Positions 25,366 through 38,563 of a stretch of DNA of 45,953 nucleotides are shown one piece after another. The notes under the pieces were generated by a model, which saw only the letters and a program-made list of their open reading frames with translations, did not search any database and was not told the DNA's origin. Position 1 is the first letter of the stretch, and each line of letters starts with the position of its first letter. The stretch is from a virus. The position numbers and the translations under genes were made by a program. The stretch lies in IMG/VR virus record IMGVR_UViG_3300045988_051183. One strand, written 5' to 3'.

Positions 25366-26247
25366 ATGGCAACTATTAGTGTTCAGACGAAAAAGTTTGC
25401 AGACCTGGAAGCGATTCTGTCCGTTACGGGTACTGAGCTGATGTTGATTCACGATGGTAACGGCGTAAAGGTCATTACCGTGAAGAATCTTCATAAGGGT
25501 TTGCAGACTGACATTGATTCAGTCAGAAATGTACTGGCTGATGGTGCAGGCGCACATAACAGTATCTATCGTGGTAAGAACCTGGGTACTTCTGTTACGG
25601 CAGAACAGTACAAGGCAATTTCCGATGGTACGTTTGCAGGTCTGTATGTTGGTGACTACTGGGTTATCAGCGGAGTGACTTACCGTATTGCAGGCTTTGA
25701 CTATTACCTGCATAACGGCGATACCGATACTACGAAGCACCATGTGGTGATTGTACCCGATGAGAGTATGGGTTCCGCTCAGATGAATACCACCAATGTC
25801 ACTACGGGCGGTTATGTCGGTTCGGCTATGTACAAGGCAAATCTGAATGCGGCTAAGACTAAAATCAAGTCTGCGTTCAGCGGTCATGTTCTTAGTCATC
25901 GTGTTTATCTGACGAATGCTGTATCTAACGGCGCACCTTCTGGCGGTGCATGGTTTGATAGCGAAGTTGAACTTATGACAGAACGCATGGTTTATGGCTG
26001 TCCTGTTCATTCTCCTATGGGTGACGGTCAGAAAGACCCGTGGAGCGCAATGCACAATTATACCGTGGAAAAATCTCAGCTTCCATTGTTCGCCCTCAAC
26101 CCGGCTGCGATTGCTACACGATATGATTACTGGCTGAGAGATGTGGTTACCGCCGCTACCTTCGCTCTTGTGAGCGACGACGGGCGTGCGGACATTAACG
26201 GCGCTTCGCACTCTTTTGGCGTTCGCCCCGCTTTCTGTATCTGTTAA
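25366..26247 (+). CDS. DGR target 1: tail fibre tip / receptor-binding protein with a C-terminal variable region
   Basis: It is the last structural gene. The C-terminus YWLRDVVTAATFALVSDDGRADINGASHSFGVRPAFCIC carries VR1. Confidence 0.85.
   Translation: MATISVQTKKFADLEAILSVTGTELMLIHDGNGVKVITVKNLHKGLQTDIDSVRNVLADGAGAHNSIYRGKNLGTSVTAEQYKAISDGTFAGLYVGDYWVISGVTYRIAGFDYYLHNGDTDTTKHHVVIVPDESMGSAQMNTTNVTTGGYVGSAMYKANLNAAKTKIKSAFSGHVLSHRVYLTNAVSNGAPSGGAWFDSEVELMTERMVYGCPVHSPMGDGQKDPWSAMHNYTVEKSQLPLFALNPAAIATRYDYWLRDVVTAATFALVSDDGRADINGASHSFGVRPAFCIC
26150..26235 (+). repeat. Variable repeat VR1
   Basis: Gapless 86-nt alignment to TR. There are 17 differences, 16 of them at TR adenines. Confidence 0.9.
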
Positions 26248-26255: not shown

Positions 26256-26278
26256 CTGCACCCCCTTGTGGGGTGCAG
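26256..26278 (+). promoter_or_regulatory. Hairpin downstream of VR1 (ctgcacccc CTTGT ggggtgcag)
   Basis: Perfect 9-bp stem and 5-nt loop, 20 nt after the VR1 end. Confidence 0.75.
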
Positions 26279-26296
26279 TAGAAAGGAACTAATGAA

Positions 26297-26932
26297 ATGT
26301 CAGTATTGAAAAGCAAACGGAAACCCTCTCAGTTTGAGGTGTTTCATCATCTCAATAAAGTTAGGAAAGAGGTTACTGATTTGCTGCTCCGTGACTTTGG
26401 CTACAGCAAACGAAAGGCGGCACAACGTCTTGAAAAGAAATTCAGCGGGCGAAGCTACGAAGAACTTACTGACGTTGAGAAAGAGATTTATGACCATTTC
26501 CGCAAACAGCAGGAAGCCTTTGACACCTGGTTCATTGAGGATGAGCGGAAAGCTGTAGTCGATTGTCTGAGGTCTATCGGTGAACACGTTTACACTGCGA
26601 ACAGCATTTATCCTACCTACTATGAAGAGTTGGTGGAGCGGCGTGTTCATCAAGACTTGGCAATCGGTCAATGTTACCGACTGGTACAAGAACTACAGTA
26701 TGCAATAGAAACTCTCCCAGTGGATGTTAATACTTTCTTGAGGTTCGGTGAGGACATTCAAAGAGAGATAGACCTTATCAAAGGTTGGCGTAAATCTGAT
26801 AACAAGTTCAAAGGGGCAATCTCTGCAACCGCCGCTAACTTCGCTAATGTGAACAACAACGGGAATGCGAACAATAACAACGCTTCTAACTCTAATGGCG
26901 TTCGCCCCGATTTCGATACTTCGATTAAATAG
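26297..26932 (+). CDS. avd: Accessory variability determinant (Avd-like four-helix-bundle protein); the ORF reads through TR
   Basis: Located between target and RT. ANSIYPTYYEELVERRVHQDLAIGQCYRLVQELQ and LIKGWRKSD are typical Avd-like segments. The last roughly 35 codons are TR read in VR phase. Confidence 0.7.
   Translation: MSVLKSKRKPSQFEVFHHLNKVRKEVTDLLLRDFGYSKRKAAQRLEKKFSGRSYEELTDVEKEIYDHFRKQQEAFDTWFIEDERKAVVDCLRSIGEHVYTANSIYPTYYEELVERRVHQDLAIGQCYRLVQELQYAIETLPVDVNTFLRFGEDIQREIDLIKGWRKSDNKFKGAISATAANFANVNNNGNANNNNASNSNGVRPDFDTSIK
26829..26914 (+). repeat. Template repeat TR
   Basis: 25 adenines arranged as 12 AAY codons plus one. The non-A positions are 60/61 and 59/61 identical to VR1 and VR2. 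Confidence 0.9.
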
Positions 26933-26978
26933 CCACTTGAGCGTTTCGGAGTAAGAGAAAGGAGAGGTTGTCCTTCCT

Positions 26979-28181
26979 ATGATGGTAAATACCAAACACG
27001 ATACTACTTCTTACGAGAATTGTAGTTGTCAACGTGAAATATATGACGGCAATGCGTTGTATGACGCTTATCTTAGAGCAAAGAGTGGGAGTGATTGGAA
27101 ACCGCAGGTTCAGCGGTATGAAATGGCATATCTTCTGGACTTGTCCAAAATGCAAAGAGAGTTGAAAGAACATACCTACGAATTTCAACCCTGTAGTAGT
27201 TTCCCTCTGAATGAACGGGGTAAGACCCGCTTTATTACGGGCGAACAGATACGGGATAGAATTGCCAAACATTCTTTATGTGATGAAGTCTTGACTCCCG
27301 CAATTAAAGACCACCTCATCTACGATAATGGCGCAAGCCAGAAAGGTAAAGGAATTGACTTTACCCGCCGCAGGTTGGAAGCGCACCTGCACAGGTTCTT
27401 CCGGGAGAATCAGAGCAACAATGGTTATATCTTGCTGATGGATTTCTCAAAGTACTATGACAACATTCGACATGACAAACTCATGGAGTTGTTTGAAAAG
27501 TACGTTGATGACGATACAGCACTCTGGTTCCTGGAAAAGATTGTAGACAATGAGAAGGTGGATGTGTCCTACATGAGTGATGAGGAATATGAGTCCGCTA
27601 TGGACGATGTATTTAATTCACTGGAACATGAAAAGGTTGATAAGAGTCTGCTGACCGGGAAGAAGTTCTTGCGAAAGCACTTGAACATTGGTGACCAGGT
27701 AGCGCAGGACGCAGGGATTGCTTATCCCATACCGATTGACAACTACATAAAGATTGTAAAAGGCGTGAAATTTTATGGCAGATACATGGATGACAGTTAT
27801 GTGATTCACAAGGATAAGGAGTTTCTGAAAGGGCTGCTTATAGAGATTGTGGAAATCGCACATGACCTGGGTATTACCGTGAATCTTCGGAAAACCAGAA
27901 TATGCAAACTGTCTGAAATGTGGAGGTTTCTACAGATTCAGTATTCGCTTACCGATACCGGGCGGGTGATTCACAAGATTCATCCGAAGCGGCTTACAGG
28001 TATGAGAAGAAAGGCTAAGAAACTGGTACTCATTCTCTCAGAGAAGGATTTCGATGACTGGTTTAGGTCATGGTTCAATGGTCACTGCCACTACATGAGC
28101 AAGCTACAAAGGTCAAATATGTTAGACCTTTGCAAGAAATTAAAGGAGGAACACTACTATGGTAAAACTGATTTTAGCTGA
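26979..28181 (+). CDS. DGR reverse transcriptase
   Basis: LLMDFSKYYDNI (motif A), YGRYMDDSYVI (YMDD), SQKGKGIDF, and LNIGDQVAQ resembling the DGR-type [LIV]GxxxSQ motif. Confidence 0.9.
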   Translation: MMVNTKHDTTSYENCSCQREIYDGNALYDAYLRAKSGSDWKPQVQRYEMAYLLDLSKMQRELKEHTYEFQPCSSFPLNERGKTRFITGEQIRDRIAKHSLCDEVLTPAIKDHLIYDNGASQKGKGIDFTRRRLEAHLHRFFRENQSNNGYILLMDFSKYYDNIRHDKLMELFEKYVDDDTALWFLEKIVDNEKVDVSYMSDEEYESAMDDVFNSLEHEKVDKSLLTGKKFLRKHLNIGDQVAQDAGIAYPIPIDNYIKIVKGVKFYGRYMDDSYVIHKDKEFLKGLLIEIVEIAHDLGITVNLRKTRICKLSEMWRFLQIQYSLTDTGRVIHKIHPKRLTGMRRKAKKLVLILSEKDFDDWFRSWFNGHCHYMSKLQRSNMLDLCKKLKEEHYYGKTDFS

Positions 28182-28461
28182 CGGCACTGAACTCAAGGGC
28201 TTCAAGCAGAATGGTAACAACTATGTCAGCAAGACTGAGGTTGATGTGTCCGTGTTTGAGGACAATCTGTCCACTCTTACGATTGTGGACGGTGACACTC
28301 AGATGGTCATGCACAACGCTGAACTGATTCAGCAGGTTCAGTATGCTGACGGTTGGTATCTCTGCTTCCGTGAAAAGACTGAGCAGGAAATGCGCTATGC
28401 TGAACTTATGGGCAAATTTGAGTACCTGGCGATGATGACTGGCGTGGATATGGAGGTGTAA
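28159..28461 (+). CDS. Hypothetical protein (100 aa)
   Basis: AAAGGAGGA SD; overlaps the RT 3' end by 23 nt. Confidence 0.55.
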   Translation: MVKLILADGTELKGFKQNGNNYVSKTEVDVSVFEDNLSTLTIVDGDTQMVMHNAELIQQVQYADGWYLCFREKTEQEMRYAELMGKFEYLAMMTGVDMEV

Positions 28462-28464
28462 ATC

Positions 28465-28614
28465 ATGGAACACAGCAAGAATTTCAAGAAGGTTAAGGAG
28501 TTCTACAAAAACGGTATCTGGTCTAAAAAGATGACGTGGAACGCAGTAGGCAAGTGGATTACCCCGGAAGAGTATAAGGAAATCACCGGGGAGGATTACA
28601 ACAAGGAGGGCTAA
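28465..28614 (+). CDS. XkdX-family small protein (49 aa)
   Basis: Hand translation gives MEHSKNFKKVKEFYKNGIWSKKMTWNAVGKWITPEEYKEITGEDYNKEG, which matches the XkdX pattern. Confidence 0.65.
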   Translation: MEHSKNFKKVKEFYKNGIWSKKMTWNAVGKWITPEEYKEITGEDYNKEG

Positions 28615-28618
28615 GATT

Positions 28619-29047
28619 ATGAAAGAATGGATTTGTACTGCAATCGGAGTTGCGGGTAGCTTCATTGCTTCCCTGTTTGGCGGTTGGGACGCTGCTCTGG
28701 CAACCCTGGTTATCTTCATGGCGATTGACTATGTTACAGGTCTGATTGTCGCAGGCGTGTTCCATAACAGCGGTAAGACTGAGAATGGTGCGCTTGAGAG
28801 CCGTGCAGGTTGGAAGGGACTGTGCCGCAAGGGTGTTTCTCTTTTGGTGGTTCTGGTTGCCTGCCGCCTGGATTTAATTACTGGCACTAATTTTATTCGT
28901 GACGCTGTGGTTATTGCATTCGTGGCAAACGAAACTATCTCCATCGTGGAAAACGCAGGACTTATGGGTATCAATATTCCCCCGGCTATTACTGCCGCAA
29001 TCGAAGTACTCAAGAAGAAGTCCGATACTGACAGCGGCGCAAACTAA
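28619..29047 (+). CDS. Holin (phage_holin_4 / LL-H-like)
   Basis: Three hydrophobic segments, DYVTGLIVAG..GLCRKG, and a position upstream of the endolysin. Confidence 0.8.
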   Translation: MKEWICTAIGVAGSFIASLFGGWDAALATLVIFMAIDYVTGLIVAGVFHNSGKTENGALESRAGWKGLCRKGVSLLVVLVACRLDLITGTNFIRDAVVIAFVANETISIVENAGLMGINIPPAITAAIEVLKKKSDTDSGAN

Positions 29048-29051
29048 GGCG

Positions 29052-29075
29052 GGAGAGAGGGTTCGCCCTCTCTCT
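29052..29075 (+). promoter_or_regulatory. Perfect 10-bp hairpin with a TTCG tetraloop between holin and endolysin
   Basis: ggagagaggg ttcg ccctctctcc. No U-tract follows. Confidence 0.7.
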
Positions 29076-29096
29076 CCTATAAAGGAGTGATGACCT

Positions 29097-30506
29097 ATGA
29101 CTATCCAGGGGTTTATTGACAGTATTGCCGGGTACATTAAGAAATATGCTGCCGCTTACAATGTATGCGTGTTCAGCCCGATTATTGCCCAGGCGATTCT
29201 TGAGAGTAACAAAGGTACGTCTGAACTGGCAGTCAACGCTCATAACTACTTTGGCTTGAAGTATCGCAAAGGACGCTGCAAGACCTGCGTGGGTGTTTAC
29301 CACAAAGTAGGCAGTGAGCAGAACCCAGACGGAACCTACACCAGTTCCACTATGGAATGGTGCAAGTTTGGAAGCATGGAGGATGGTGTTATCGGGTATT
29401 TCGATTTTACCAACATTTCTGCCTATTCCAATTTGAAGGGTGTGACTGACCCCAGACAGTACCTTGAGAATATCAAAGCTGACGGGTATGCAACCTCTCT
29501 GAAATATGTGGACAACCTTATGGCTGTCATTGAGAGGTATGACCTTACCCGATATGACAAGGAGGAAATGAAAATGAGTAACAGTTCTCTGGTGTCCTAC
29601 ACCAAAATCTCACCTAACAAAAACAGTCCCCGCAATCATGTGATTGACCGTATTACCCCGCACTGTGTAGTCGGTCAGCTTTCTGCGGAGAGTATCTGCG
29701 GTTGCTTCACCAGTCCTTCCCGGCAGGCAAGCTGCAACTACGGTATCGGTTATGACGGCAGAATCTCTCTATGTGTGGAAGAGAAAGACCGCTCCTGGTG
29801 TTCTTCCAGTTCTGCGAATGACCATCGTGCCGTGACCATCGAATGTGCGTCTGACAAGACTCACCCTTACGCTATGACGAACGCTGTATATGCTTCCCTC
29901 ATCAACCTTTGCGTGGACATTTGCAAGCGCAACGGTAAAAAGAAGCTGCTCTGGTTCGGTGACAAGAACAAGACCCTGGCGTACAGTCCGAAGTCTGATG
30001 AGATGGTTCTGACGGTACATAGATGGTTTGCAAATAAGTCTTGCCCTGGTGATTGGCTCTATTCCCGTATGGGTGACCTGGCGGCAAAGGTTACTGCCCG
30101 TCTGGGCGGCAGCACTGCCGAAGAGAAGCCTGCAAGCACCACACTGTACCGTGTCCGTAAGACCTGGGCTGATAGTGCTTCTCAGAAGGGTGCATTCTCT
30201 TCTCTGGCGAATGCGAAAGCCTGTGCAGACAAGAACCCCGGCTACAAGGTGTTTGATGGTTCGGGTAATGCTGTGTACCCTGCGGAGAGCAAGCCTGCAT
30301 TCTCTCCGTATAGAGTGAAGGTTACAGCTTCGGTTCTGAATATCCGTAAGGGTGCAGGTACGAACTACGCACTGGCGGGTGCTATCCGTGACGGTGGAGT
30401 TTATACCATCGTGCAGGAAAGCACTGGGCAGGGAGCAACGAAGTGGGGTAAGCTGAAATCTGGTGCAGGGTGGATTTCCCTGGACTACACCACGAAGGTA
30501 TCATAA
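29097..30506 (+). CDS. Multidomain endolysin (glucosaminidase, N-acetylmuramoyl-L-alanine amidase, SH3-like binding repeats)
   Basis: AQAILESNKGTSELAVNAHNYFGLKY (glucosaminidase-like); an amidase_2-like middle region; C-terminal YRVKVTASVLNIRKGAGTNY..WGKLKSGAGWISLDY (SH3-like). Confidence 0.9.
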   Translation: MTIQGFIDSIAGYIKKYAAAYNVCVFSPIIAQAILESNKGTSELAVNAHNYFGLKYRKGRCKTCVGVYHKVGSEQNPDGTYTSSTMEWCKFGSMEDGVIGYFDFTNISAYSNLKGVTDPRQYLENIKADGYATSLKYVDNLMAVIERYDLTRYDKEEMKMSNSSLVSYTKISPNKNSPRNHVIDRITPHCVVGQLSAESICGCFTSPSRQASCNYGIGYDGRISLCVEEKDRSWCSSSSANDHRAVTIECASDKTHPYAMTNAVYASLINLCVDICKRNGKKKLLWFGDKNKTLAYSPKSDEMVLTVHRWFANKSCPGDWLYSRMGDLAAKVTARLGGSTAEEKPASTTLYRVRKTWADSASQKGAFSSLANAKACADKNPGYKVFDGSGNAVYPAESKPAFSPYRVKVTASVLNIRKGAGTNYALAGAIRDGGVYTIVQESTGQGATKWGKLKSGAGWISLDYTTKVS

Positions 30507-32086
30507 TCCCAGAATCGCTTCCAGGAATGTGACTTCAATCTACAGTGGAACGTGTGAATTAACAGGTTTCCTGTGATTGTTGGATTTGCACTCATACCTG
30601 GTGCATTGGAAGTGAAATCCGACAACGTGCCGCCTTTGTTTAGGCGGTACGTTTTTGTCGGTAAAGAGGTTAGATTATAAGCAACGGTGACCTTATAGGT
30701 ATTATCGTCCTCATCCCATACAGTGACGGAGTTTACGAAAAGGTCAATGAGCATACGGCAGAACTCTTCATCTTCAATACTGCCGCCCCGAAACTGTTCT
30801 AACCAATAAATAACCTGGGCTTTGTCCAGTTCAACAATATCCTCAGATTCTTTCTTAGCCTGTGCTTGCAGGTCTTTCTTTTCTTTCTCTAATTCACCCA
30901 TACGCTTCACAAGCATATCTGGGGCTGACCCGGATTCAATAGCTTTGAGAAGATGGTTGAGAGATAAGTCTACCTGGTGAATACGGTCACGAATAGTTGG
31001 GAGGGCTGAATCCAGTTCAATCTCATGCTGATTCTTCTCACAGGCAATAGTAGCAATCTGTTCTATATATTCATCCGTAAGGAGTGATAGAGCGTCCTGG
31101 GCAACCAGTCTTTCTATGAACTCCTTACGGATATTCTTTTTCTTGCAGTCAACATTGCCGTTCTTCTTTCCGTAACACTGATAGTAACAGTAGTTTCCTG
31201 CATTGCAATTTCCGTTCATTTTACTACCACAATGTCCGCAGAAGATTTTACCACTAAGCAGGTAGACTACTTTTGCTTTGTTCCGGGCAGGTGCATTTTT
31301 AATCTTACCGACTCTAAGTTGCACCCTGTCCCAGAGGTCTTTGTCAATTATAGCAGGTATAGCGTCCTCTGCCCGGTAGTCATGAAAGGTATAAACTCCG
31401 ATGTACCTCTCATTACGGAATATTTTGGTGAAAGAACTCTTTCCGAAAGCTGTACCCTTTGAGGTTTTGTATCCACGGGCATTAAACTGACGGCAGATTT
31501 CAGCAACCGTTTCTCCGTCTGCATATTTCTCAAAGGCTTCTTTTACAATGGGAGCCGTTTTAGGGTCTATTACCAGTTTCTTATCTTCAATCTTATATCC
31601 CAGAGGAATTGCCCCTCCTATAGAGTTATGCTTATAGGCTGACTCTCTCATACCACGGTTAATTTTCTGGGATAGTTCGGCACTGTAGAACTCAGCCATA
31701 CCTTCAAGCACGGATTCCAGAATGATACCTTCCGGGTCATTGCTGATATTCTCTGTGGCAGATATAAGCTGCACCCCGTTACGCTTCAAGCGATATTTGT
31801 AGGTGGCTGAGTCATACCGGGAACGGGCGAAGCGGTCAAGTTTGTATACGATTACAGCGTCAAACAAGCCCTTCTCAGAGTCCTTTATCATCTTGAGGAA
31901 CTGGACTCTCTTCTCTATATCCTTACTGGCAGATGTGGCTCTGTCAGCATATATCTCTACAATTCTAATATTATGCCGCTTGCAGAAGTCACGGCAAACA
32001 CGGGTCTGCCCTTCAATGGATTGCTCAGTCTGGTTATGGCTTGAGAATCTAACGTATAGGCAGGCTGTTTTTATATCCTCATACAT
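30485..32086 (-). CDS. int: Large serine recombinase (integrase)
   Basis: N-terminal ACLYVRFSSHNQ..SIEGQ catalytic serine region, a recombinase domain, a Cys-rich zinc ribbon (CGHCGSKM..CYYQC) and a coiled coil. Confidence 0.9.
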   Translation of the reverse strand: MYEDIKTACLYVRFSSHNQTEQSIEGQTRVCRDFCKRHNIRIVEIYADRATSASKDIEKRVQFLKMIKDSEKGLFDAVIVYKLDRFARSRYDSATYKYRLKRNGVQLISATENISNDPEGIILESVLEGMAEFYSAELSQKINRGMRESAYKHNSIGGAIPLGYKIEDKKLVIDPKTAPIVKEAFEKYADGETVAEICRQFNARGYKTSKGTAFGKSSFTKIFRNERYIGVYTFHDYRAEDAIPAIIDKDLWDRVQLRVGKIKNAPARNKAKVVYLLSGKIFCGHCGSKMNGNCNAGNYCYYQCYGKKNGNVDCKKKNIRKEFIERLVAQDALSLLTDEYIEQIATIACEKNQHEIELDSALPTIRDRIHQVDLSLNHLLKAIESGSAPDMLVKRMGELEKEKKDLQAQAKKESEDIVELDKAQVIYWLEQFRGGSIEDEEFCRMLIDLFVNSVTVWDEDDNTYKVTVAYNLTSLPTKTYRLNKGGTLSDFTSNAPGMSANPTITGNLLIHTFHCRLKSHSWKRFWDYDTFVV

Positions 32087-32113
32087 GGTTCTTCCTCCAC
32101 TCTACAAAATCAA

Positions 32114-32461
32114 TCACCCGGCACTTTCGTTGTCCCCTTTTCGCTTCTCACACATACAGGTAGTAATAATGTTGAATCTACCTTGTGGGGTAGCGGAACG
32201 GAATGCATCAAGCAGTAATTGCTCTTCTTCTGTTAGGGAAATCTCTACTTTTGGGTATGGTGAATCAGATAAACAGAATAAATAATCAGTAGAAACGTGA
32301 AAATATTTAGCCAGTCTTAGTACGGCTTCGGCACTGGGCGCATAAGTTCCCTTTTTCCATTTGCTAAAACTGCCATTAGATATACCTGTAGCAGCTTCAA
32401 GGGCTTTTACTGTTAATCCCGACTGTTTTTGTAACTCCAAAATGCGTTCTAAGGTATCCAT
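32114..32461 (-). CDS. cI-like repressor (XRE-family HTH)
   Basis: SGLTVKALEAATGISNGSFSKWKKG looks like an HTH. It is divergent from the early operon and directly upstream of int. Confidence 0.8.
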   Translation of the reverse strand: MDTLERILELQKQSGLTVKALEAATGISNGSFSKWKKGTYAPSAEAVLRLAKYFHVSTDYLFCLSDSPYPKVEISLTEEEQLLLDAFRSATPQGRFNIITTCMCEKRKGDNESAG

Positions 32462-32506
32462 AAGAACCCTCCTAAAAATAAATTTGGGAAAACTCTAAAA
32501 TACCTG

Positions 32507-32535
32507 TTGACAATTTGGGAATTCTCTACTATACT
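32507..32535 (+). promoter_or_regulatory. Early rightward promoter (PR-like)
   Basis: TTGACA at 32507-32512, a 17-nt spacer, then TATACT at 32530-32535. It is overlapped by a repeat of aatttgggaaNNctcta. Confidence 0.6.
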
Positions 32536-32710
32536 GAGTATGTCAACAAAAGTTGTTTACAGGGTATAAGAAATAGCCCCTCCGGGCTGTAAATTTTACC
32601 CCGCAGAGTTTTCAATGGTATATGGGTGTGGTAGCTTCATTATAACCTTTGAAGAGTCTGTTGTCAACTTTAGTTTACAAGATTCTAATATGAAAGGAGG
32701 AAGCGAAAAC

Positions 32711-32935
32711 GTGGAGGAACGTGAAAACATTCGTGAGCGGCTTAAAAAGCACAAGCTGTCTTACGTCTGGTTGATTGGTCAGCTTGCCTTGCGGGGTATT
32801 GTGACTGATAAGACAGAGATGAGTTCAGTAATTTCGGGAACCAGAAACGGTACTAAAGCGGACGCAATCATTGAATTGTCCATAGATATTCTGGACAAGT
32901 ATGAGAATGGTTCCGTCCTCGTTGATGGGGCTTAA
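32711..32935 (+). CDS. Cro-like / early regulator (start uncertain)
   Basis: GTG 32711 follows AAAGGAGGA. It is the first gene of the rightward operon. Confidence 0.5.
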   Translation: MEERENIRERLKKHKLSYVWLIGQLALRGIVTDKTEMSSVISGTRNGTKADAIIELSIDILDKYENGSVLVDGA

Positions 32936-33084
32936 TGCTTCGCACATTAGAAGGAAGCGCACTTTGTTCTGTCCTTGCTGACAGGGTAAAGGAATACTTC
33001 AAAGATGAGGAAAACCGCAAGAAGTTTGAAATCTGGTATCAAGAAAAATACGGTAAGCCGTACAAGTGGAGGAAAACACAATGA
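32935..33084 (+). CDS. Hypothetical small protein (49 aa)
   Basis: TAATG coupling upstream and ATGA coupling downstream. Hand translation gives MLRTLEGSALCSVLADRVKEYFKDEENRKKFEIWYQEKYGKPYKWRKTQ. Confidence 0.45.
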   Translation: MLRTLEGSALCSVLADRVKEYFKDEENRKKFEIWYQEKYGKPYKWRKTQ

Positions 33085-33653
33085 AAGTAAAAAGAATGAT
33101 TAAGTCTGACGTTGATACTTTTAAGGTTGGAGATATTATCAAGGTCAAACTCACGGACGGTGTGAAGGTGCAGGCTATGGCTATGCAGCAGGAAGAGGAC
33201 GGCATGATTTTCTGCCTGGTTGATTGCCTGCCTGGTGAGTACCCGATGAACAGCACCCGTACCAATGAAGGAGGTTACGAAGAGAGTGACCTGCGTAAGA
33301 AGCTGAATGGTGAGATTCTGAATCTCTTCCCGGCAGAACTCAAGGCTATGATGGCTCCGTTTGACAACGGTGATTTGCTCCGTCTGCCGACTGAGAAAGA
33401 GATTTTCGGAGAGAACTACTACGGTGAGTACGAAAGCCCGTATGTGAAGCAGTGGAAGCCTATGAAGAAGCGTAGAAACCGTATGGCGTTCGATGGCAGC
33501 AAGGATGAGAACTTACAGTGGTACTGGCTGATGAACAAGGTCAGAGAATCCGCCGCTAGCTTCGCTAGAGTGTACAGCGGCGGGCATGCTAGCCATGGCG
33601 GCGCTTCTTACTCTCTTGGCGTTCGCCCCGCTTTCAAAATCAAGAATCGTTAA
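33081..33653 (+). CDS. DGR target 2: small early-operon protein with a C-terminal variable region
   Basis: The C-terminus WYWLMNKVRESAASFARVYSGGHASHGGASYSLGVRPAFKIKNR carries VR2. GGAGGA SD. No signal peptide or tail-attachment domain was recognised. Confidence 0.85.
   Translation: MKVKRMIKSDVDTFKVGDIIKVKLTDGVKVQAMAMQQEEDGMIFCLVDCLPGEYPMNSTRTNEGGYEESDLRKKLNGEILNLFPAELKAMMAPFDNGDLLRLPTEKEIFGENYYGEYESPYVKQWKPMKKRRNRMAFDGSKDENLQWYWLMNKVRESAASFARVYSGGHASHGGASYSLGVRPAFKIKNR
33550..33635 (+). repeat. Variable repeat VR2
   Basis: Gapless 86-nt alignment to TR. There are 19 differences, 17 of them at TR adenines. The codon phase is the same as VR1. Confidence 0.9.
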
Positions 33654-33654
33654 T

Positions 33655-33677
33655 CTGCACCTCCTTGTGAGGTGCAG
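33655..33677 (+). promoter_or_regulatory. Hairpin downstream of VR2 (ctgcacctc CTTGT gaggtgcag)
   Basis: 9-bp stem and the same CTTGT loop as the VR1 hairpin, with one compensatory base-pair change. It lies 19 nt after the VR2 end. Confidence 0.75.
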
Positions 33678-33692
33678 TGGGAGCAGAAGCCT

Positions 33693-34133
33693 ATGAAACA
33701 AGTGAACAAAACAATGGGAAACCACTTTGAAGAGGAACTGTGTGAACTTCTGGCAGAGCAAGGTTTCTGGGCGCACAATCTGGCACAAAACCAGGTAGGA
33801 CAACCCGCAGACGTGCTTGCGGTTCGGGACAACATAGCAATCTTGATTGACTGCAAGGTATGTTCTAACAACCGCTTCCCGTTATCCCGGATTGAACCAA
33901 ACCAGGAAGCGGCTATGACCATGTGGGAAGCCCAGGGCAATGAGCATTGCTACTTCGCTATGAAGCTGAATGACGGACAGATATATATGATTCACTTCGA
34001 TGAGTTATGTCTGCGGCAGCTTTACGGGCAGGGCAGCATTACAGAGTCAGAGTTTCCAGAGTACAAGACCTTTCAAGAGTGGTTGGAGGAAATGGATGTT
34101 TATAGAAATCGGGAGCCGATTGAAAATCCTTGA
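33693..34133 (+). CDS. PD-(D/E)xK nuclease, Hjc-type Holliday junction resolvase-like
   Basis: GNHFEEELCELLAEQGF..PADVLAV..AILIDCK fits the GxxFE / D / (D/E)xK arrangement. The ORF-track GTG 33672 lies inside the VR2 hairpin. Confidence 0.55.
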   Translation: MKQVNKTMGNHFEEELCELLAEQGFWAHNLAQNQVGQPADVLAVRDNIAILIDCKVCSNNRFPLSRIEPNQEAAMTMWEAQGNEHCYFAMKLNDGQIYMIHFDELCLRQLYGQGSITESEFPEYKTFQEWLEEMDVYRNREPIENP

Positions 34134-35481
34134 CCCCTCACCCGAACTGATTAAGTGGTGCAAAGAGAATCTGGAAATGACAAACCCAGAGTATCAGCAA
34201 AAAGCACGAATGCACCTGTGGCTTGGGAATACCCCACGAACACTTTATCTCTATGAGGTAAATGGAAATAGCTTGATTCTCCCATTCGGGTGTCTGAGAG
34301 CAATCCTGCCGCTTCTGGAAGGAGATATGAAGAAGCTGTTCAAAGAGCCGAAGAAGGTTGACTACGGCGGTAAGGTTCCGCTGTATGACTACCAGGAAGA
34401 AGCAGTTGCGGCAATGCTGATAAACCACTACGGCATTCTACAATCCCCTGCCGGGTCTGGTAAGACTCAGATGGGAATTGCCCTGGCGTGTGCGTTAGGG
34501 GTAAAAACCCTCTGGCTGACACACACCAAAGACCTGCTGACGCAGAGCAAGAGCCGTGCAGAACAGTATGTTGATTCAGAACTACTGGGAACGATAACCG
34601 AAGGGAAGGTTAATATCGGCAAGGCTATGACCTTCGCCACAATCCAGACCATGTGCAAATTGGACTTAGACCAATATAGAGATGAGTGGGACTGCGTGAT
34701 TGTGGACGAGTGTCACAGAGTAAGCGGTACACCTACAGCGGTAACCCAATTCTCAAAGGTACTGAATACGCTGTGTGCCAGACATAAGTTCGGGCTGTCA
34801 GCAACCGTCCATCGTTCGGACGGGATGATAAAAGCAACCTACGCAATGTTGGGTCAAGTAGTATGGACTGTTCCAGACGAAGCAGTGAAGTCCAGGGTTA
34901 TGACAGTGAGTGTCCTGCCGAAAGGTACGAACGTAAAACTGAGTCCTGCTTATCTGAACAGTGATGGCACAATTAACTACTGCAAAATGATTACCTACCT
35001 CACAGAATGTGAGAGCCGAAACAAGATTATTCTTGATGACCTGGTTGAGAACCGTGAGCATTTCAATCTGATTCTATCAGAAAGGGTTGACCATCTTAAA
35101 TACCTGTATGAGCAGTTACCTTTGAAACTAAGGGCGCAAGCAGCGGTGATAGATGGAAAGATGACCAGTAAGAAGCGGAAAGCTGAACGGGAACAGGCTA
35201 TTGAGGATATGAGGACTGGCAAGAAACGGTATCTGTTTGCAACATATTCCCTGGCAAAAGAAGGTCTGGACATTCCCAGACTGGACAGATTGTACCTAAC
35301 AACCCCCCAGAAAGATTATGCGGTGATAGTTCAGAGCGTGGGACGTATCGCCCGAACCTTTGACGGTAAGGAGCAGCCGATAGCTTATGACTATGTAGAC
35401 TGCATACGGTCATTGCAGAAATCTTTCAAACAACGCTGCACCAGTTACAGGAAGTGCGGGTGCGAATTTATAGGAGATTGA
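34096..35481 (+). CDS. SF2 DEAD/DEAH-box DNA helicase
   Basis: LYDYQEEAV, PAGSGKTQ (motif I), VIVDECHRV (motif II), LSATVHR (motif III), QSVGRIAR (motif VI). ATG 34096 follows GGAGGA. Confidence 0.85.
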   Translation: MFIEIGSRLKILDPSPELIKWCKENLEMTNPEYQQKARMHLWLGNTPRTLYLYEVNGNSLILPFGCLRAILPLLEGDMKKLFKEPKKVDYGGKVPLYDYQEEAVAAMLINHYGILQSPAGSGKTQMGIALACALGVKTLWLTHTKDLLTQSKSRAEQYVDSELLGTITEGKVNIGKAMTFATIQTMCKLDLDQYRDEWDCVIVDECHRVSGTPTAVTQFSKVLNTLCARHKFGLSATVHRSDGMIKATYAMLGQVVWTVPDEAVKSRVMTVSVLPKGTNVKLSPAYLNSDGTINYCKMITYLTECESRNKIILDDLVENREHFNLILSERVDHLKYLYEQLPLKLRAQAAVIDGKMTSKKRKAEREQAIEDMRTGKKRYLFATYSLAKEGLDIPRLDRLYLTTPQKDYAVIVQSVGRIARTFDGKEQPIAYDYVDCIRSLQKSFKQRCTSYRKCGCEFIGD

Positions 35482-35482
35482 C

Positions 35483-35869
35483 ATGAAGAATAAAGTTCTG
35501 AAAACAATCGGATATATCGTGGGCATAACGTGGCTGTTCACTGCCTGCGCTCTGGATGATGAAGTCTACGGGATGACAATGCTTCTCATCAATGTCCTCT
35601 GTACTGCATACCTGGCACTGTTCTCCTGGGCAAATAACTGGTGGTATGACTTGGAGGACTACGAAGATGAAGATGACGAAGAGTATGAAGAACCACTTCA
35701 CTACTGCTCAACTTCTTCTGGACGGCGTGGAAGAGAGTATGGGAGCCACACCCGACAAGTGGGGCATAATTCCTCCCGAACACTCCAAAGCGTCAATGAT
35801 TCGCCGCTGCGTACAGGCAAGACAAGAAATCTTGCAGGTACAAAAGGCTCTGGAAGAAGGGCGGTGTGA
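35483..35869 (+). CDS. Small membrane protein with an acidic tail (3' extent doubtful)
   Basis: Two hydrophobic segments, then DLEDYEDEDDEEYEE. The last roughly 55 codons are Arg/Ser/Gly-rich and overlap a better-looking frame. Confidence 0.45.
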   Translation: MKNKVLKTIGYIVGITWLFTACALDDEVYGMTMLLINVLCTAYLALFSWANNWWYDLEDYEDEDDEEYEEPLHYCSTSSGRRGREYGSHTRQVGHNSSRTLQSVNDSPLRTGKTRNLAGTKGSGRRAV

Positions 35870-35879
35870 CGATGGTTGA
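35667..35879 (+). CDS. Hypothetical protein (70 aa) in an alternative frame
   Basis: GGAGGA at 35653-35658 lies 8 nt before ATG 35667. Sequence MKMTKSMKNHFTTAQLLLDGVEESMGATPDKWGIIPPEHSKASMIRRCVQARQEILQVQKALEEGRCDDG. Confidence 0.5.
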   Translation: MKMTKSMKNHFTTAQLLLDGVEESMGATPDKWGIIPPEHSKASMIRRCVQARQEILQVQKALEEGRCDDG

Positions 35880-37845
35880 GGGAACCTACATATTCGACTG
35901 TGAGGTATTTGCTCATGACTGGCTGTTTGTGTTCAAAGAAGTAGCCACGGGAGAGTACACGGTTATCTGGAATGACAATGATGAAGTTCTGGCTTTCATG
36001 GAGCGCAACCCGTATCTGGGCGGCTTCAACAACAAGCACTACGATAACCACATACTCAAGGCAGTTATGTGTGGGTTCACCCCGGAACAGGTGAAGGAGA
36101 TAAATGACCTCATCATCGTTCACGAATTAAACGGGTGGGACATTCCTGCTCTGAGAGAGTACCGGGTCTATTTTGACAGCTTTGACCTCAAGGATGATTG
36201 CCAGGACGGTGTATCCCTTAAAGGGATTGAAGCCCACCTGGGTATTCCGATTGAGGAAACAGAGGTTGATTTCAATGTTGACCATGTTCTCTCTGAATCA
36301 GAAAAGGCACAGACTACTTACTACTGTAAGTACGATGTGGACGCAACGGAGATTCTTTTCAAGTTGCGGCAAGGCTATCTGGACAACAAGGCGGCTGTAG
36401 GCAGGAAGCGTGGTCTGACAGACAGACAGGCTATGTACATGACTAATGCCAAACTGACAAGCGTGTACCTGCAAGCCCAGAAACCAGAGAAGCCATGGAC
36501 AGACGAAAGAGATTATCAGTACCCGGACAAGCTGCTTCGGCAGTACATTCCGCAGGAAGTGTTTGACTTCTTTGACAAGCTGCATGACCCGAACATTCCG
36601 AACTACCTTCTGTTTGGTGGCTACGATGAACAAGGTGTGAAGCACAAGGGAGCCGCCCTGGACTTTTCCATTGGTGAGTGCAAATGCACGATAGCCTACG
36701 GAGGTATCCACGGTGCAATTCCTACTTATGTGGAAGAAGCTACTGAGGGCAGGTCAATCCGAAACAAGGACGTGGCAAGTTATTACCCGCACTTGATGAC
36801 CATTCCTCTCTCAAAGGGACAGAAATACGGCTTCTGTAGTCGCAATATTCCTTCCCCGCAGGTGTATGTAGATACCTTGGAAGAGAGAGTACAGGCGAAG
36901 AAAGCCGGGGATAAGGTCACGGCAAACGCTCTGAAACTGGTACTGAACACAACCTACGGAACCATGCTTAACGGTAAAGATGGCGTGGCTTTCAATGACC
37001 TGTATGACCCTCTGATGGGACGTTCAGTCTGTATCACAGGACAGCTTCTCCTACTGGAACTGTCAATGCACTTGGTCAGTGAGTGTCCGACTCTTAAAAT
37101 CATTCAGCTTAATACGGATGGTATCATGGTGAGTTTCGACAACTCCGATGAAGCAAAATGGCAGGAAATCACCCAGGAATGGCAGGACAGAACCGGGTTT
37201 GAACTGGAAGAGGATTTCATTCAGAAAATCGTGCAGCGGGATGTGAACAACTACGTTGAGGTTCCCGTGGGTGACGGTAAGCCGAAGGTCAAGGGCGGCG
37301 CACTGGTAAGAGGTATTCTGACCAATGCAAACATTGACTTCACCAAAATGGGACTCCCTGCCTGGGAGAACATGAGTGGTGGTGCATGGAATATCAACAA
37401 CAATGCGGTTATAGTCGCACGGGCAATTCAGGATTACTTTGTAAAGGGTGTAGACCCAGAAGAAACGATAATGGCAAGTAAGAATATCCTGGACTTCCAG
37501 GTGATTGCAAAGGTTGGAGGTAAATATTCCGGGTGCTATCAGATGGTGGGTGAAGATAAGGTTCCTGTACAGAAAGTCAACAGGGTATATGCCACGGCAG
37601 ACAGACGGTATGGAACCATCTACAAAACTCACGCTGTAACAGGCAAGGACGCAAAGGTTCCCAGTCTGCCAGTTCACTGTATGGTAGACAACAATAATGA
37701 GTTGTCTATTGATGTGGTAGACCGCAACTGGTATCTGAAACTGGCACAGAAGAACATTCGTGAGTTCCTGGGTGTGAAACCACCACGGAAGAATACAAGG
37801 AGAATCAATTCCTTGAAAAAGAAATCTTTAGCATTATTCGATTAA
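35866..37845 (+). CDS. Family B DNA polymerase with 3'-5' exonuclease domain
   Basis: Exo motifs FDCEVF, NNKHYDNHIL and YCKYDVDAT. Polymerase motifs DVASYYPHLM, KLVLNTTYG and LNTDGIMV. The start is GTG 35866 or ATG 35872. Confidence 0.85.
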   Translation: MTMVEGTYIFDCEVFAHDWLFVFKEVATGEYTVIWNDNDEVLAFMERNPYLGGFNNKHYDNHILKAVMCGFTPEQVKEINDLIIVHELNGWDIPALREYRVYFDSFDLKDDCQDGVSLKGIEAHLGIPIEETEVDFNVDHVLSESEKAQTTYYCKYDVDATEILFKLRQGYLDNKAAVGRKRGLTDRQAMYMTNAKLTSVYLQAQKPEKPWTDERDYQYPDKLLRQYIPQEVFDFFDKLHDPNIPNYLLFGGYDEQGVKHKGAALDFSIGECKCTIAYGGIHGAIPTYVEEATEGRSIRNKDVASYYPHLMTIPLSKGQKYGFCSRNIPSPQVYVDTLEERVQAKKAGDKVTANALKLVLNTTYGTMLNGKDGVAFNDLYDPLMGRSVCITGQLLLLELSMHLVSECPTLKIIQLNTDGIMVSFDNSDEAKWQEITQEWQDRTGFELEEDFIQKIVQRDVNNYVEVPVGDGKPKVKGGALVRGILTNANIDFTKMGLPAWENMSGGAWNINNNAVIVARAIQDYFVKGVDPEETIMASKNILDFQVIAKVGGKYSGCYQMVGEDKVPVQKVNRVYATADRRYGTIYKTHAVTGKDAKVPSLPVHCMVDNNNELSIDVVDRNWYLKLAQKNIREFLGVKPPRKNTRRINSLKKKSLALFD

Positions 37846-37858
37846 GGAGGATAAGACA

Positions 37859-38029
37859 ATGGAAGAAAAAAAAATTAGCAAGGTTGAGTTCGATGAAGCA
37901 GTGAAGCAGGCAATTCACGAACAGGTCAATGACCCGAACATTGAGGGTATGGGCAAGCTGCTCATTCCGATGACGGGTATGCTGTTCGCAACTAAAGTAA
38001 AAGAGATTCTGTTCGGTAAGGAGGACTAA
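37859..38029 (+). CDS. Hypothetical small protein (56 aa)
   Basis: AAGGAGG SD. Hand translation begins MEEKKISKVEFDEAVKQAIHEQVNDPNIEGMGKLLIPMTGMLFATKVKEILFGKED. Confidence 0.55.
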   Translation: MEEKKISKVEFDEAVKQAIHEQVNDPNIEGMGKLLIPMTGMLFATKVKEILFGKED

Positions 38030-38033: not shown

Positions 38034-38543
38034 ATGAAATTCAGTGAAGCTGAAAAAGCACTCAAGGCAGGCAAGAAGATTAAGTTACCTAAGTGGGAGA
38101 AAGCCTACTGGTACATGAACCAGGACGGTGAACTCATCAACCATTTTGAGGAAGGTGAGGAACTTCCGACTATCGCACTCTTCCCTCATGACATGATTTG
38201 GGTCACCCGTGATGATTGGGAAATCGTGCAGGAGGGTGAGCCGAAGAACGTCAACGAACCTGCGGGTGAGATGAAGAAGCTGCGTAACTTCGGATGGGCG
38301 ATTGCCGCTCTCAAGGACGGTAAGAAGGTAGCCCGCCAGAACTGGAACGGCAAGGGTATGTTCCTCTTCCTGGCACATAGCATGGATATTACAACGGACG
38401 CTGACCTTTCTTGCGTGAAAGACCTTGAAGGTGACCTGGTATCCCCGTCCATCGTTATGAAAACTGCTGATGACCGTTTCTGCGTTGGTTGGCTTGCAAG
38501 TCAGACAGATATGCTTGCGGATGATTGGTACGAAGTTCAGTAA
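38034..38543 (+). CDS. DUF2829-family protein (Tad2-like), apparently two tandem repeats
   Basis: FGWAIAALKDGKKVARQNWNGKGMFLFL..PSIVMKTADDRFCVGWLASQTDMLADDWYEV is a typical DUF2829 pattern. The N-terminal half FSEAEKALKAGKKIKLPKW..DDWEIV repeats it. Confidence 0.75.
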   Translation: MKFSEAEKALKAGKKIKLPKWEKAYWYMNQDGELINHFEEGEELPTIALFPHDMIWVTRDDWEIVQEGEPKNVNEPAGEMKKLRNFGWAIAALKDGKKVARQNWNGKGMFLFLAHSMDITTDADLSCVKDLEGDLVSPSIVMKTADDRFCVGWLASQTDMLADDWYEVQ

Positions 38544-38563
38544 AGATAAGGAGGACATTAGCA

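What the first reader, a model, noticed from the sequence alone, without database searches (positions are those of the whole stretch)
33081..33677. Second, remote DGR target: a small non-structural protein in the early (cro-side) operon
VR2 (33550-33635) matches the same TR over the same 86 nt and in the same codon phase. It has 17 adenine-site differences and 2 non-adenine differences (TR positions 20 and 41). VR2 lies 6.7 kb from TR, beyond the lysis and lysogeny modules. It is the third gene of the rightward early operon and is translationally coupled (ATGA) to the gene before it. The 190-aa protein has no recognisable signal peptide, lipobox or tail-attachment N-terminus. It does share pre-VR elements with target 1: WYWLMNKV versus DYWLRDV, and LPTEKEIFGENYYG versus ELMTERMVYG. 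A hypervariable ligand-binding protein made early and apparently inside the cell is not the classical receptor-binding role of phage DGR targets. It could instead bind a variable host factor or defence component.
Basis: partly seen in the sequence, partly recalled or inferred. Interest (0 to 1): 0.85.

Follow-up and report, generated by a model that had tools for sequence, protein, structure and literature searches.

The report
Remote early-operon DGR target protein
A gut prophage uses one mutagenic retroelement to hypermutate both a tail-module protein and a small soluble lectin-like protein encoded 6.7 kb away in its early operon; this layout is real and active, but it has already been reported in related gut phages and the protein's function is still unknown.

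Summary
VR2 (33549/33550-33635) matches TR (26828-26914) in the same codon phase. It has 18 adenine-site and 2 non-adenine differences (Fisher p=1e-10). It carries the same IMH and the same downstream GC hairpin as VR1. VR2 closes a 190-aa ORF, the third gene behind a near-consensus rightward promoter next to the repressor.

The target is active, not decayed. Among 120 homologues, variation peaks at exactly the 12 AAY codons. In four relatives VR2 matches its own diverged TR at non-A sites. The scaffold is under purifying selection (dN/dS 0.19).

The protein is one DUF6273 domain with no hydrophobic N-terminus. It lacks the N-terminal virion-type module of target 1.

Homologous small remote targets lie in early or replication regions of Acutalibacter phage Fontainebleau, Roseburia phage Shimadzu (orf43) and Faecalibacterium phage Toutatis (gp24). 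Diversification of Shimadzu orf43 has been shown experimentally. A 2025 Nature paper already noted distal second VRs near counter-defence genes.

This is therefore a new member of a known kind. An intracellular, early-acting variable binder is plausible, but it is neither demonstrated nor original. A virion-associated or released adhesin role is not excluded.

The parts
33081..33653 (+). Target 2 (T2) gene: a 190-aa soluble protein made of a single DUF6273 domain
   Evidence: ORF and ATGA overlap. Pfam DUF6273 scores 37.5 bits against a cut-off of 23.5. phrog_21980 matches residues 1-186 at E 6.6e-28. Maximum 19-residue hydropathy is 0.63 and there is no lipobox. Scaffold dN/dS is 0.19.
33549..33635 (+). 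VR2, the variable repeat (homology to TR is secure from 33550)
   Evidence: 18 A-site and 2 non-A differences from TR, Fisher p 1.2e-10. Protein entropy of about 3 bits falls at exactly the 12 AAY codons.
33618..33635 (+). IMH-like 3' end of VR2 (GGCGTTCGCCCCGCTTTC). The TR copy reads ...CCCGATTTC (IMH*).
   Evidence: The same single C/A difference from TR occurs in VR1 and VR2, and in all related VR2 copies.
33655..33677 (+). GC-rich 9-bp hairpin with a 5-nt loop downstream of VR2; presumed target-recognition element
   Evidence: -11.0 kcal/mol, z -3.75. It is paralogous to the VR1 hairpin with a compensatory C:G>T:A change. Stems covary across relatives, and the hairpin is missing from non-DGR paralogues.
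26828..26914 (+). Template repeat (TR), with 26 adenines and 12 AAY codons
26149..26235 (+). VR1, at the end of target 1
   Evidence: 16 A-site differences and 1 non-A difference from TR
26256..26278 (+). Hairpin downstream of VR1
   Evidence: -11.4 kcal/mol, z -5.17
25366..26247 (+). Target 1 gene (293 aa): an N-terminal virion-structural-type module followed by a DUF6273 domain
   Evidence: phrog_27494 'virion structural protein' matches residues 1-84; DUF6273 matches 235-292. The gene follows the tape-measure and tail genes.
26297..26932 (+). Avd-like ORF whose reading frame runs through the TR
   Evidence: phrog_3206 'Avd protein of DGR' at E 9e-4, a weak match
26979..28181 (+). DGR reverse transcriptase (400 aa)
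   Evidence: RVT_1 at E 8e-11; phrog_1423 at E 1e-56
32507..32535 (+). Rightward early promoter-like site (TTGACA-17-TATACT)
   Evidence: 11 of 12 consensus matches, in the intergenic region between repressor and early operon
32615..32935 (+). First early ORF (106 aa); called cro-like from its position only
   Evidence: No Pfam or PHROG hit. Conserved synteny in relatives.
32935..33084 (+). Second early ORF (49 aa), overlapping both neighbours (TAATG and ATGA)
32114..32461 (-). HTH (XRE/cI-type) repressor, transcribed divergently
   Evidence: HTH_3 and HTH_19; phrog_8
33693..34133 (+). Holliday-junction resolvase (Hjc/RecU-like), the gene immediately after T2
   Evidence: Pfam Hjc at E 2e-6; phrog_843 at E 2e-15
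34096..35481 (+). SF2 DNA helicase. The start is taken from the gene call in the Moryella prophage; the ORF is open from 34000.
   Evidence: ResIII and Helicase_C; phrog_16

Best explanation
SHOWN. The prophage carries one DGR: an Avd-like ORF, TR 26828-26914 and RT 26979-28181, placed between the tail and lysis genes. This DGR writes adenine-mutagenised copies of the TR into two targets. Each target presents the same cis signals, namely a VR in the same codon phase, an identical IMH (GGCGTTCGCCCCGCTTTC) and a GC-rich hairpin about 20 nt downstream. VR2, 6.7 kb away, is therefore a working remote homing site. It is kept in register with its own TR in every relative examined and is as heavily diversified as VR1. 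The 12 AAY codons allow about 15^12 = 1e14 variants. T2 is a conserved, purifying-selected 21.8-kDa protein with no hydrophobic segment. It consists of one DUF6273 domain, and the literature describes DUF6273 as C-type-lectin-like. The variable residues lie at its C-terminus.

INFERRED (about 0.4). T2 is the third gene behind the repressor-controlled rightward promoter. Its homologues sit among replication, recombination and methyltransferase genes in five different genome layouts, never in the structural module in the genomes examined. I therefore think it is most likely made early and acts off the virion, in the infected cell. Under this view it is a variable binding protein whose ligand is itself variable: a host defence or other host factor, or a component of a competing element. 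Each genome would test its own variant at the next infection.

The DGR-target part of this statement I hold at about 0.97. The intracellular-binder part I hold at about 0.4.
For: - Repeat family and adenine bias.
- Hairpins after both VRs but not after the TR, differing by a compensatory change. Hairpin stems covary across relatives.
- Entropy of about 3 bits at only the 12 AAY-encoded residues among 120 homologues.
- DNA entropy at A sites of 1.46 bits against 0.20 bits at other sites, p 5e-12.
- VR2 has 0, 0, 0 and 1 non-A mismatches to its own TR in four relatives whose TRs differ from this one at up to 7-8 non-A sites.
- The exact RT protein occurs on 82 contigs, while the exact T2 sequence occurs on 1 and the exact T1 sequence on 2.
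- One 90%-identity cluster of T2 holds 7,495 distinct sequences.
- Scaffold dN/dS is 0.19 and VR dN/dS is 1.33.
- DUF6273 and phrog_21980 membership. The best BFVD structural matches are DUF6273 phage proteins.
- No hydrophobic segment. Of 95 small family representatives, only 1 has a hydrophobic N-terminus.
- Promoter present and no terminator before 36000.
- Early or replication-region position in the Moryella prophage and other W-type loci, Fontainebleau, Shimadzu and Toutatis gp24.
- Experimental diversification of Shimadzu orf43: 2% of reads in vitro and 47% of virome reads in mice.
- A published remark that distal second VRs lie near counter-defence genes.
Against: - There are no data on expression timing, localisation or virion content for any member of the family.
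- All characterised phage DGR targets are virion-exposed receptor-binding or adhesion proteins.
- DUF6273 domains in bacteria occur in secreted or surface proteins: the IgA protease N-terminal domain and giant proteins with 5-12 repeats and signal or TM N-termini.
- Small DUF6273-only targets also occur within DGR cassettes next to tail genes and have been read as Mtd-like.
- In this window T2 has no methyltransferase or known anti-defence neighbour.
- My AlphaFold models are of low confidence across residues 114-178, so I could not verify the binding-site geometry or the C-lectin fold myself.
- VR2 in this particular genome has 2 non-A mismatches.
Confidence: 0.4

Rival explanations
1. T2 is a virion-associated accessory receptor-binding or adhesion protein, a minimal Mtd-like lectin domain. 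It merely happens to be encoded outside the structural module. It would join the tail or capsid through its scaffold or through another protein, and so give the phage a second, independently diversified binding specificity.
For: - All experimentally characterised phage DGR targets are virion-surface binders (general DGR knowledge).
- T2 shares the DUF6273 scaffold, IMH and TR with the tail-module target T1.
- Authors of the Toutatis and tentaclin papers read small DUF6273 targets as receptor-binding proteins.
- Bacterial DUF6273 domains are extracellular.
Against: - In five genome layouts the gene lies in early or replication regions, never in the structural module in the genomes examined.
- It lacks the N-terminal module that T1 has, a weak phrog_27494 match.
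- It is the third gene of the repressor-controlled early operon.
- VR1 and VR2 residues in the same genome are unrelated.
Confidence: 0.3
2. T2 is a free lectin-like protein that acts outside the cell. It would be released at lysis, or by vesicles or non-classical export, and would bind bacterial or mucosal glycans. Possible roles are masking receptors on debris, adherence, or lysogenic conversion.
For: - A 2026 preprint reports a prophage DGR-diversified DUF6273 (tentaclin) protein in the secretome or vesicles of Faecalibacterium without phage particles.
- The protein is soluble and small.
- The domain family is extracellular in bacteria.
Against: - No signal peptide.
- In this window the gene lies behind the promoter that faces the repressor gene, so it is presumably silent in the lysogen.
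- The preprint's protein is the large Ig-domain target in the accessory module, not the small early one.
Confidence: 0.15
3. VR2 is a decayed or fossil target, or a chance or duplication-derived repeat that the DGR no longer rewrites.
For: - VR2 here has two non-A mismatches to the TR.
- T2-like paralogues on large contigs do look static: they lack the hairpin and a nearby TR.
Against: - Adenine bias with p 1e-10.
- Intact IMH and hairpin.
- Concerted evolution with each phage's own TR.
- Hypervariability confined to AAY codons across thousands of variants.
- The exact T2 sequence is unique while the RT sequence recurs on 82 contigs.
- The homologue in Shimadzu is rewritten experimentally.
Confidence: 0.03

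Closest known systems
Roseburia phage Shimadzu orf43 (VR2 target; Cornuault et al., bioRxiv 10.1101/575076 / ISME J 2020)
   Same: - Homologous protein: 34% identity, E 1e-15, DUF6273.
- It is the second VR of a DGR whose cassette follows the tail genes.
- The gene lies beyond the lysis, integrase and repressor genes, in the early or replication region.
- 0 non-A mismatches, and a GC hairpin after the VR.
- Diversification was seen in reads.
   Different: - The host phage is a myovirus.
- The gene is 13.7 kb from the TR, flanked by DNA methyltransferases and Erf rather than directly behind the cro-like genes.
- The TR is 111 nt, and the protein is 209 aa.
Acutalibacter phage Fontainebleau WAK78934.1 (ON453893, 9330-9899)
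   Same: - 46% identical 189-aa protein.
- Same two-target layout: VR2 9801-9887, VR1 34391, TR 35106, RT 35351-36376.
- Same IMH logic and GC hairpins.
- Its 90%-identity cluster holds 1,220 variants.
   Different: - It lies between DNA polymerase I and a helicase, 25 kb from the TR.
- The record annotates it only as hypothetical. I found no paper in the searchable library that describes this VR2.
[quoted passage not shown]
   Same: - A small DUF6273 protein in the early region, remote from the cassette.
- All 13 TR/VR differences fall at adenines.
- It is a core gene in 98.8% of Toutatisvirus genomes.
   Different: - It is too diverged for tblastn to detect.
- The VR ends about 40 codons before the stop.
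- No clear hairpin was found after it.
- The authors interpret it as a receptor-binding protein.
Bordetella phage BPP-1 Mtd with its IMH and hairpin target recognition (Liu 2002; Guo 2011; my own knowledge)
   Same: - A C-terminal VR with AAY codons.
- An IMH/IMH* distinction, and a GC hairpin downstream of the VR that marks the homing target.
- The C-lectin-type variable fold, according to the literature on DUF6273.
   Different: - Mtd is a 381-aa trimeric tail-fibre tip protein with N-terminal domains, encoded immediately upstream of the cassette.
- It has no detectable sequence similarity to T2.
- T2 is a single domain, encoded remotely, and positioned among early genes.
Cytoplasmic bacterial DGR targets (C-lectin/FGE domains fused to STAND NTPases or kinases; Vallota-Eastman 2020, Dore 2024; listed)
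   Same: They set a precedent for DGR-diversified ligand-binding domains working inside the cell as sensors or binders.
   Different: - They are cellular, multi-domain signalling proteins, not small phage early proteins.
- No sequence relationship was tested here.

Membership tests
DGR variable (target) gene | A VR that is a near-repeat of a TR, with differences concentrated at TR adenines | tested here: met
   18 of 20 differences fall at A; Fisher p 1.2e-10
DGR variable (target) gene | A cognate DGR reverse transcriptase and accessory (Avd) gene next to the TR | tested here: met
   RT matches RVT_1 and phrog_1423 at E 1e-56. The Avd match is weak (phrog_3206, E 9e-4).
DGR variable (target) gene | An IMH at the 3' end of the VR that differs from IMH* in the TR, plus a downstream GC-rich hairpin or cruciform | tested here: met
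   VR reads ...CCCGCTTTC and TR reads ...CCCGATTTC. A 9-bp hairpin lies 19-20 nt downstream of both VRs and is absent after the TR. Stems covary.
DGR variable (target) gene | Ongoing diversification at adenine-encoded codons in natural populations | tested here: met
   Entropy peaks at the 12 AAY codons. VR2 evolves in concert with its own TR. The exact sequence is unique while the RT recurs on 82 contigs. Read-level variation within a single sample could not be tested.
Pfam DUF6273 (PF19789) | Score above the curated gathering threshold | tested here: met
   37.5 bits against 23.5, residues 122-188. The full length matches phrog_21980. BFVD structural hits are DUF6273 proteins at E 3e-6 to 2e-4.
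C-type-lectin-fold DGR variable proteins (Mtd, TvpA class) | A C-lectin/FGE-like fold with the VR forming the ligand-binding face | tested here: inconclusive
Mtd-type virion receptor-binding protein | Encoded in the tail module, with an N-terminal domain for attachment or trimerisation | tested here: not met
   The gene lies in the early operon, 6.7 kb from the cassette. The protein is a single domain, and the alignment to T1 starts at T1 residue 136.
Mtd-type virion receptor-binding protein | Physical presence in virions and a role in adsorption | not testable with these tools
   I found no virion proteome for any member in the searchable library.
Phage counter-defence (anti-defence) protein | Early expression and a neighbourhood of counter-defence genes | tested here: inconclusive
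   An early-operon position is predicted. Methyltransferase neighbours occur in Shimadzu, group C and Toutatis, but not in this window or in Fontainebleau.
Phage counter-defence (anti-defence) protein | Binding to, or inhibition of, a host defence component | not testable with these tools
   Needs experiment.

The most novel reading that the evidence does not exclude
The small early DUF6273 proteins of Clostridia phages (this T2, Fontainebleau WAK78934.1, Shimadzu orf43, Toutatis gp24) form a phage-encoded, DGR-diversified repertoire of antibody-like cytoplasmic binders. They are made from the immediate-early operon. Each genome would carry one of about 1e14 possible specificities and be selected at the next infection for neutralising a variable host defence protein or a competing mobile element. 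That would make this the first adaptive-immunity-like counter-defence system found in a virus of bacteria.
Probability: 0.22. Interest if true: 0.88.

Novelty: new member of a known kind. Interest (0 to 1): 0.5.

Why it matters
DGRs are the only known natural machines for targeted protein hypermutation in prokaryotes. In phages they are understood almost entirely as tools for switching tail-fibre tropism.

This locus adds a well-resolved, very abundant example of a second class of phage DGR target. One cluster alone holds 7,495 variants, and the phage occurs as a prophage in several Lachnospiraceae genera. The target is a minimal DUF6273 domain that is always encoded among early or replication genes, far from the cassette, and is kept in step with the TR by an IMH and hairpin signal.

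The comparative result is new as a synthesis: the same class of position recurs in five genome layouts, covering siphovirus-like and myovirus genomes of Lachnospiraceae and Oscillospiraceae/Ruminococcaceae. This sharpens an open question that can be tested directly, because two members (Fontainebleau and Shimadzu) are in culture.

If the protein acts inside the cell, it would extend DGR biology in phages from host recognition to intracellular conflict. If it is a virion or released adhesin, it shows that phages can run two independent binding repertoires from one template.

Tried and rejected
1. Megablast of 24000-38000 against GenBank phages found nothing. Relatives had to be found by protein search.

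2. Structure. Two AlphaFold2 runs used 99-sequence alignments with two and then three clades. Both left residues 114-178 below pLDDT 50. Foldseek against the PDB gave no significant hit, and an HMM search of PDB sequences gave only a spurious E 0.28 hit. I could therefore not confirm the C-lectin fold myself.

3. Chance or duplication origin of VR2 is rejected on adenine bias and concerted evolution.

4. A decayed target is rejected.

5. The hairpin acting as an intrinsic terminator that separates T2 from downstream genes is rejected. It has no T-run, and no plus-strand terminator-like site was reported.

6. I scanned family members that carry N-terminal extensions for informative fused domains. 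Only unknown-function PHROGs appeared.

7. My crude ORF caller picked several wrong-strand ORFs (clusters 4, 26, 37, 48, 69). These were discarded as artefacts.

8. Neighbour families of the large-contig paralogues gave no Pfam hits.

9. I looked for virion proteomics or timing data for any homologue in the held library and found none.
Full report
**1. The observation**

A repeat search across 24000-34500 returns one three-member family: VR1 26149-26235, TR 26828-26914 and VR2 33549-33635.

- Over 87 nt, VR2 differs from TR at 20 positions, and 18 of these are TR adenines. The two non-adenine differences are at TR positions 21 and 42.
- With 26 adenines in 87 nt, the adenine bias gives Fisher p = 1.2e-10.
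- Both VRs begin at codon position 1 of their ORFs.
- The ORF is 33081-33653 (190 aa). Its ATG overlaps the TGA of a 49-aa ORF (32935-33084), whose own ATG overlaps the stop of a 106-aa ORF (32615-32935).
Both VRs, but not the TR, are followed 19-20 nt downstream by a 9-bp GC-rich hairpin with a CTTGT loop. The energies are -11.4 and -11.0 kcal/mol, with z-scores of -5.2 and -3.8. After the TR the value is -4.4 kcal/mol with z -0.4. The two stems differ by one compensatory C:G to T:A change.
- Together with the IMH/IMH* difference (VR ...CCCGCTTTC, TR ...CCCGATTTC), this is the cis-signal set known from the Bordetella phage DGR (my own knowledge of Guo et al. 2011).

**2. Map of the window**

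| Feature | Coordinates |
|---|---|
| Tape-measure protein | 18258-21710 |
| Tail-region proteins | up to 25362 |
| Target 1 | 25366-26247 |
| Avd-like ORF | 26297-26932 |
| RT | 26979-28181 |
| Holin | 28619-29047 |
| Endolysin | 29097-30506 |
| Serine integrase | 30485-32086 (minus) |
| HTH repressor | 32114-32461 (minus) |
| Rightward operon: 106-aa ORF, 49-aa ORF, T2 | 32615-33653 |
| Hjc-type resolvase | 33693-34133 |
| SF2 helicase | to 35481 |
| DNA polymerase | 35866-37845 |
| Erf | 38525-39313 |

These assignments come from Pfam and PHROG scans.

- Target 1's N-terminal 84 residues match a 'virion structural protein' PHROG.
- A TTGACA-17-TATACT site lies at 32507-32535 in the intergenic region between the repressor and the early operon. 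No plus-strand terminator-like site occurs before 36000.
- The 'third gene of the early cro-side operon' description therefore holds. However, the 106-aa protein is cro-like only by position, because it has no family hit.

**3. Is VR2 active?**

Four independent lines of evidence say it is.

- (a) Among the 120 best of 2,028 homologues, column entropy is about 3 bits (12-16 residue types) at exactly the 12 residues encoded by AAY in the TR. It stays below 1.7 bits at almost every other position. One 90%-identity cluster alone holds 7,495 distinct sequences.
- (b) At the DNA level, across 24 distinct related VR2 copies, entropy is 1.46 bits at TR-adenine positions and 0.20 bits elsewhere (p = 5e-12).
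- (c) For four relatives, both TR and VR2 could be read from the same contig. There VR2 has 0, 0, 0 and 1 non-adenine mismatches to its own TR, although those TRs differ from this window's TR at up to 7-8 non-adenine sites. This concerted evolution is what continual rewriting from the template predicts.
- (d) The exact RT protein of the window is on record on 82 contigs, whereas the exact T2 and T1 proteins are on 1 and 2 contigs.

VR1 and VR2 carry similar mutation loads. VR1 has 11-23 of about 26 adenines changed across relatives, and VR2 has 14-18. The variable residues of the two targets in one genome are unrelated.

The scaffold (codons 1-156) is under purifying selection, with a median dN/dS of 0.19. 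The VR codons give 1.33.

Within-sample read data were not available.

**4. What the protein is**

- T2 passes the Pfam DUF6273 threshold (37.5 against 23.5 bits) over residues 122-188. It matches phrog_21980 over residues 1-186.
- T2 residues 52-187 are homologous to T1 residues 136-292 (27% identity; hhalign probability 96%). T1 is therefore an N-terminal module plus a DUF6273 domain, and T2 is the DUF6273 domain alone.
- T2 has no hydrophobic segment (maximum 19-residue hydropathy 0.63) and no lipobox. The same holds across 99 aligned relatives.
- An exhaustive profile search finds 4,952 family representatives. Of the 148 best that I could read, 95 are proteins of 215 aa or fewer, and only one of those has a hydrophobic N-terminus. 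Seven are large proteins, of which six carry 4-12 domain copies, and four of the seven have signal or TM N-termini.
- My two AlphaFold2 models are confident for residues 12-110 and 181-188 but not for 114-178. Their best BFVD matches are DUF6273 phage proteins (E 3e-6 to 2e-4). There is no significant PDB match.

**5. Related loci**

- The same synteny (integrase, repressor, 106-aa ORF, 49-aa ORF, T2, resolvase, helicase, polymerase) occurs in a Moryella indoligenes prophage and in several IMG/VR contigs. The T1 cluster includes an Enterocloster bolteae protein.
- A 57-58% identical form sits between the helicase and the polymerase (L059 and L074).
- Acutalibacter phage Fontainebleau has a 46% identical protein between DNA polymerase I and a helicase. 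Its VR2 (9801-9887) has no non-adenine mismatch to the TR at 35106, which lies next to the RT after the tail genes. GC hairpins follow both VRs.
- Roseburia phage Shimadzu orf43 is 34% identical and lies between DNA methyltransferases and Erf. Its TR is 19599-19709 and its VR2 is 33483-33593. All 15 differences are at adenines, and a hairpin follows. IMG/VR relatives of this type are preceded by a C5-methyltransferase and a 3D-domain protein.
- Faecalibacterium phage Toutatis gp24, annotated DUF6273, lies among early genes upstream of the replication initiator and antiterminator. Its VR differs from the TR at 13 adenines only.
- In none of these five layouts is the small target inside the structural module.

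**6. What is already published**

- Cornuault et al. reported VR2 in Shimadzu orf43 'of unknown function'. They saw DGR-type variants in 2% of reads in vitro and 47% of virome reads from mice.
- Gulyaeva et al. described 'small DGR target proteins' with DUF6273 in Lelie and CP11, and called their role unclear.
- The iLund4u preprint described the Toutatis second VR, 17,480 nt from the TR in a core gene, and read it as a receptor-binding protein.
- Baykov et al. showed two-target DGRs with DUF6273/C-lec domains.
- Roux et al. state that their survey could not detect remote targets.
- A 2026 preprint reports a DGR-diversified DUF6273 tentaclin in a lysogen's secretome.

The existence of this class of target, and the counter-defence idea, are therefore both in the literature. 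The function remains untested.

**7. Mechanism**

Shown by the sequence and comparative data:

- One TR and RT serve two targets that share codon phase, IMH and hairpin.
- VR2 is rewritten in nature.
- The 12 AAY codons give about 15^12 (1e14) possible binding surfaces on a conserved soluble scaffold.

Inferred:

- Early expression from the repressor-controlled promoter.
- Action away from the virion.

I put about 0.4 on an intracellular variable-binder role (host defence, host factor or competing element). I put about 0.3 on a virion-associated accessory binder, about 0.15 on a released or exported lectin, and about 0.03 on a fossil target.

- An early cytoplasmic binder would have a clean genotype-phenotype link, because each incoming genome expresses its own variant before replication.
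- Against this stand the extracellular habit of DUF6273 in bacteria and the precedent of all characterised phage targets.

**8. Verdict**

The target is real, remote, early-positioned and lacks an export signal, but 'non-structural, intracellular' remains an inference and the idea is not new.
- Classification: a new member of a known kind.
- Interest is moderate, at 0.5. The case is well supported and abundant, and it bears on an open and now readily testable question, but it is not a discovery of a new kind of system.

Noticed in passing
L005 5440-6042, 6807-7409, 10001-10615; also L013-L048 (match at 10001-10570 in each): Contigs of 45-268 kb carry 2-3 tandem T2-like paralogues, 74-89% identical to T2, with VR-like ends. 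They have no GC hairpin downstream, no TR within 10 kb, and no exact TR 3' end on those IMG/VR contigs. Several contigs share an identical VR that differs only by ordinary point mutations. These look like static or orphan copies, possibly on the 'Hodor' megaplasmids described in PMC12934698.
   Followed up: partly
window 26297-26932: The Avd-like ORF (211 aa) reads straight through the TR, so its C-terminal 30 residues are the TR translation and hit phrog_21980. The Avd match itself is weak (E 9e-4) and starts at residue 86. The true Avd start and stop are therefore uncertain.
   Followed up: no
window 32639-32667 (minus strand): A perfect sigma-70 consensus (TTGACA-17-TATAAT) lies on the minus strand inside the 106-aa cro-like ORF and points toward the repressor gene. 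It may be a maintenance-type promoter with a leader of about 180 nt.
   Followed up: no
window 33569 and 33590 (VR2); 26208 (VR1): This genome has 2 (VR2) and 1 (VR1) non-adenine mismatches to its TR, whereas four relatives have 0-1. One of the VR2 changes (AAT>AGA) turns a would-be Ser codon into Arg. The cause could be RT error, a later point mutation, or a mixed-population consensus.
   Followed up: partly
whole window (1-45953): The window is an entire 45,953-bp JGI/ENA contig. Near-identical prophages occur in Moryella indoligenes (GCA_030812885.1), and T1 cluster members occur in Enterocloster bolteae. One phage type therefore spans several Lachnospiraceae genera.
   Followed up: partly
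P0405 (3973 aa), P0410 (3404 aa), P0477 (2439 aa), P0420 (2245 aa): The strongest profile hits to the T2 family include giant proteins with 5-12 tandem DUF6273 domains and signal or TM N-termini. They are presumably bacterial surface proteins built from the same module.
   Followed up: no
window 26828 / 33549; L104 TR: The first TR codon is ACC in this lineage, but VR2 reads TCC in all relatives, and another lineage's TR itself reads TCC. The 5' boundary of effective homing therefore appears to fall after this base for VR2.
   Followed up: no
L084 (FP_Toutatis) 11932-12032: In Toutatis gp24 the VR ends about 40 codons before the stop, and no strong hairpin follows it. This differs from the W-type, Fontainebleau and Shimadzu targets.
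   Followed up: no
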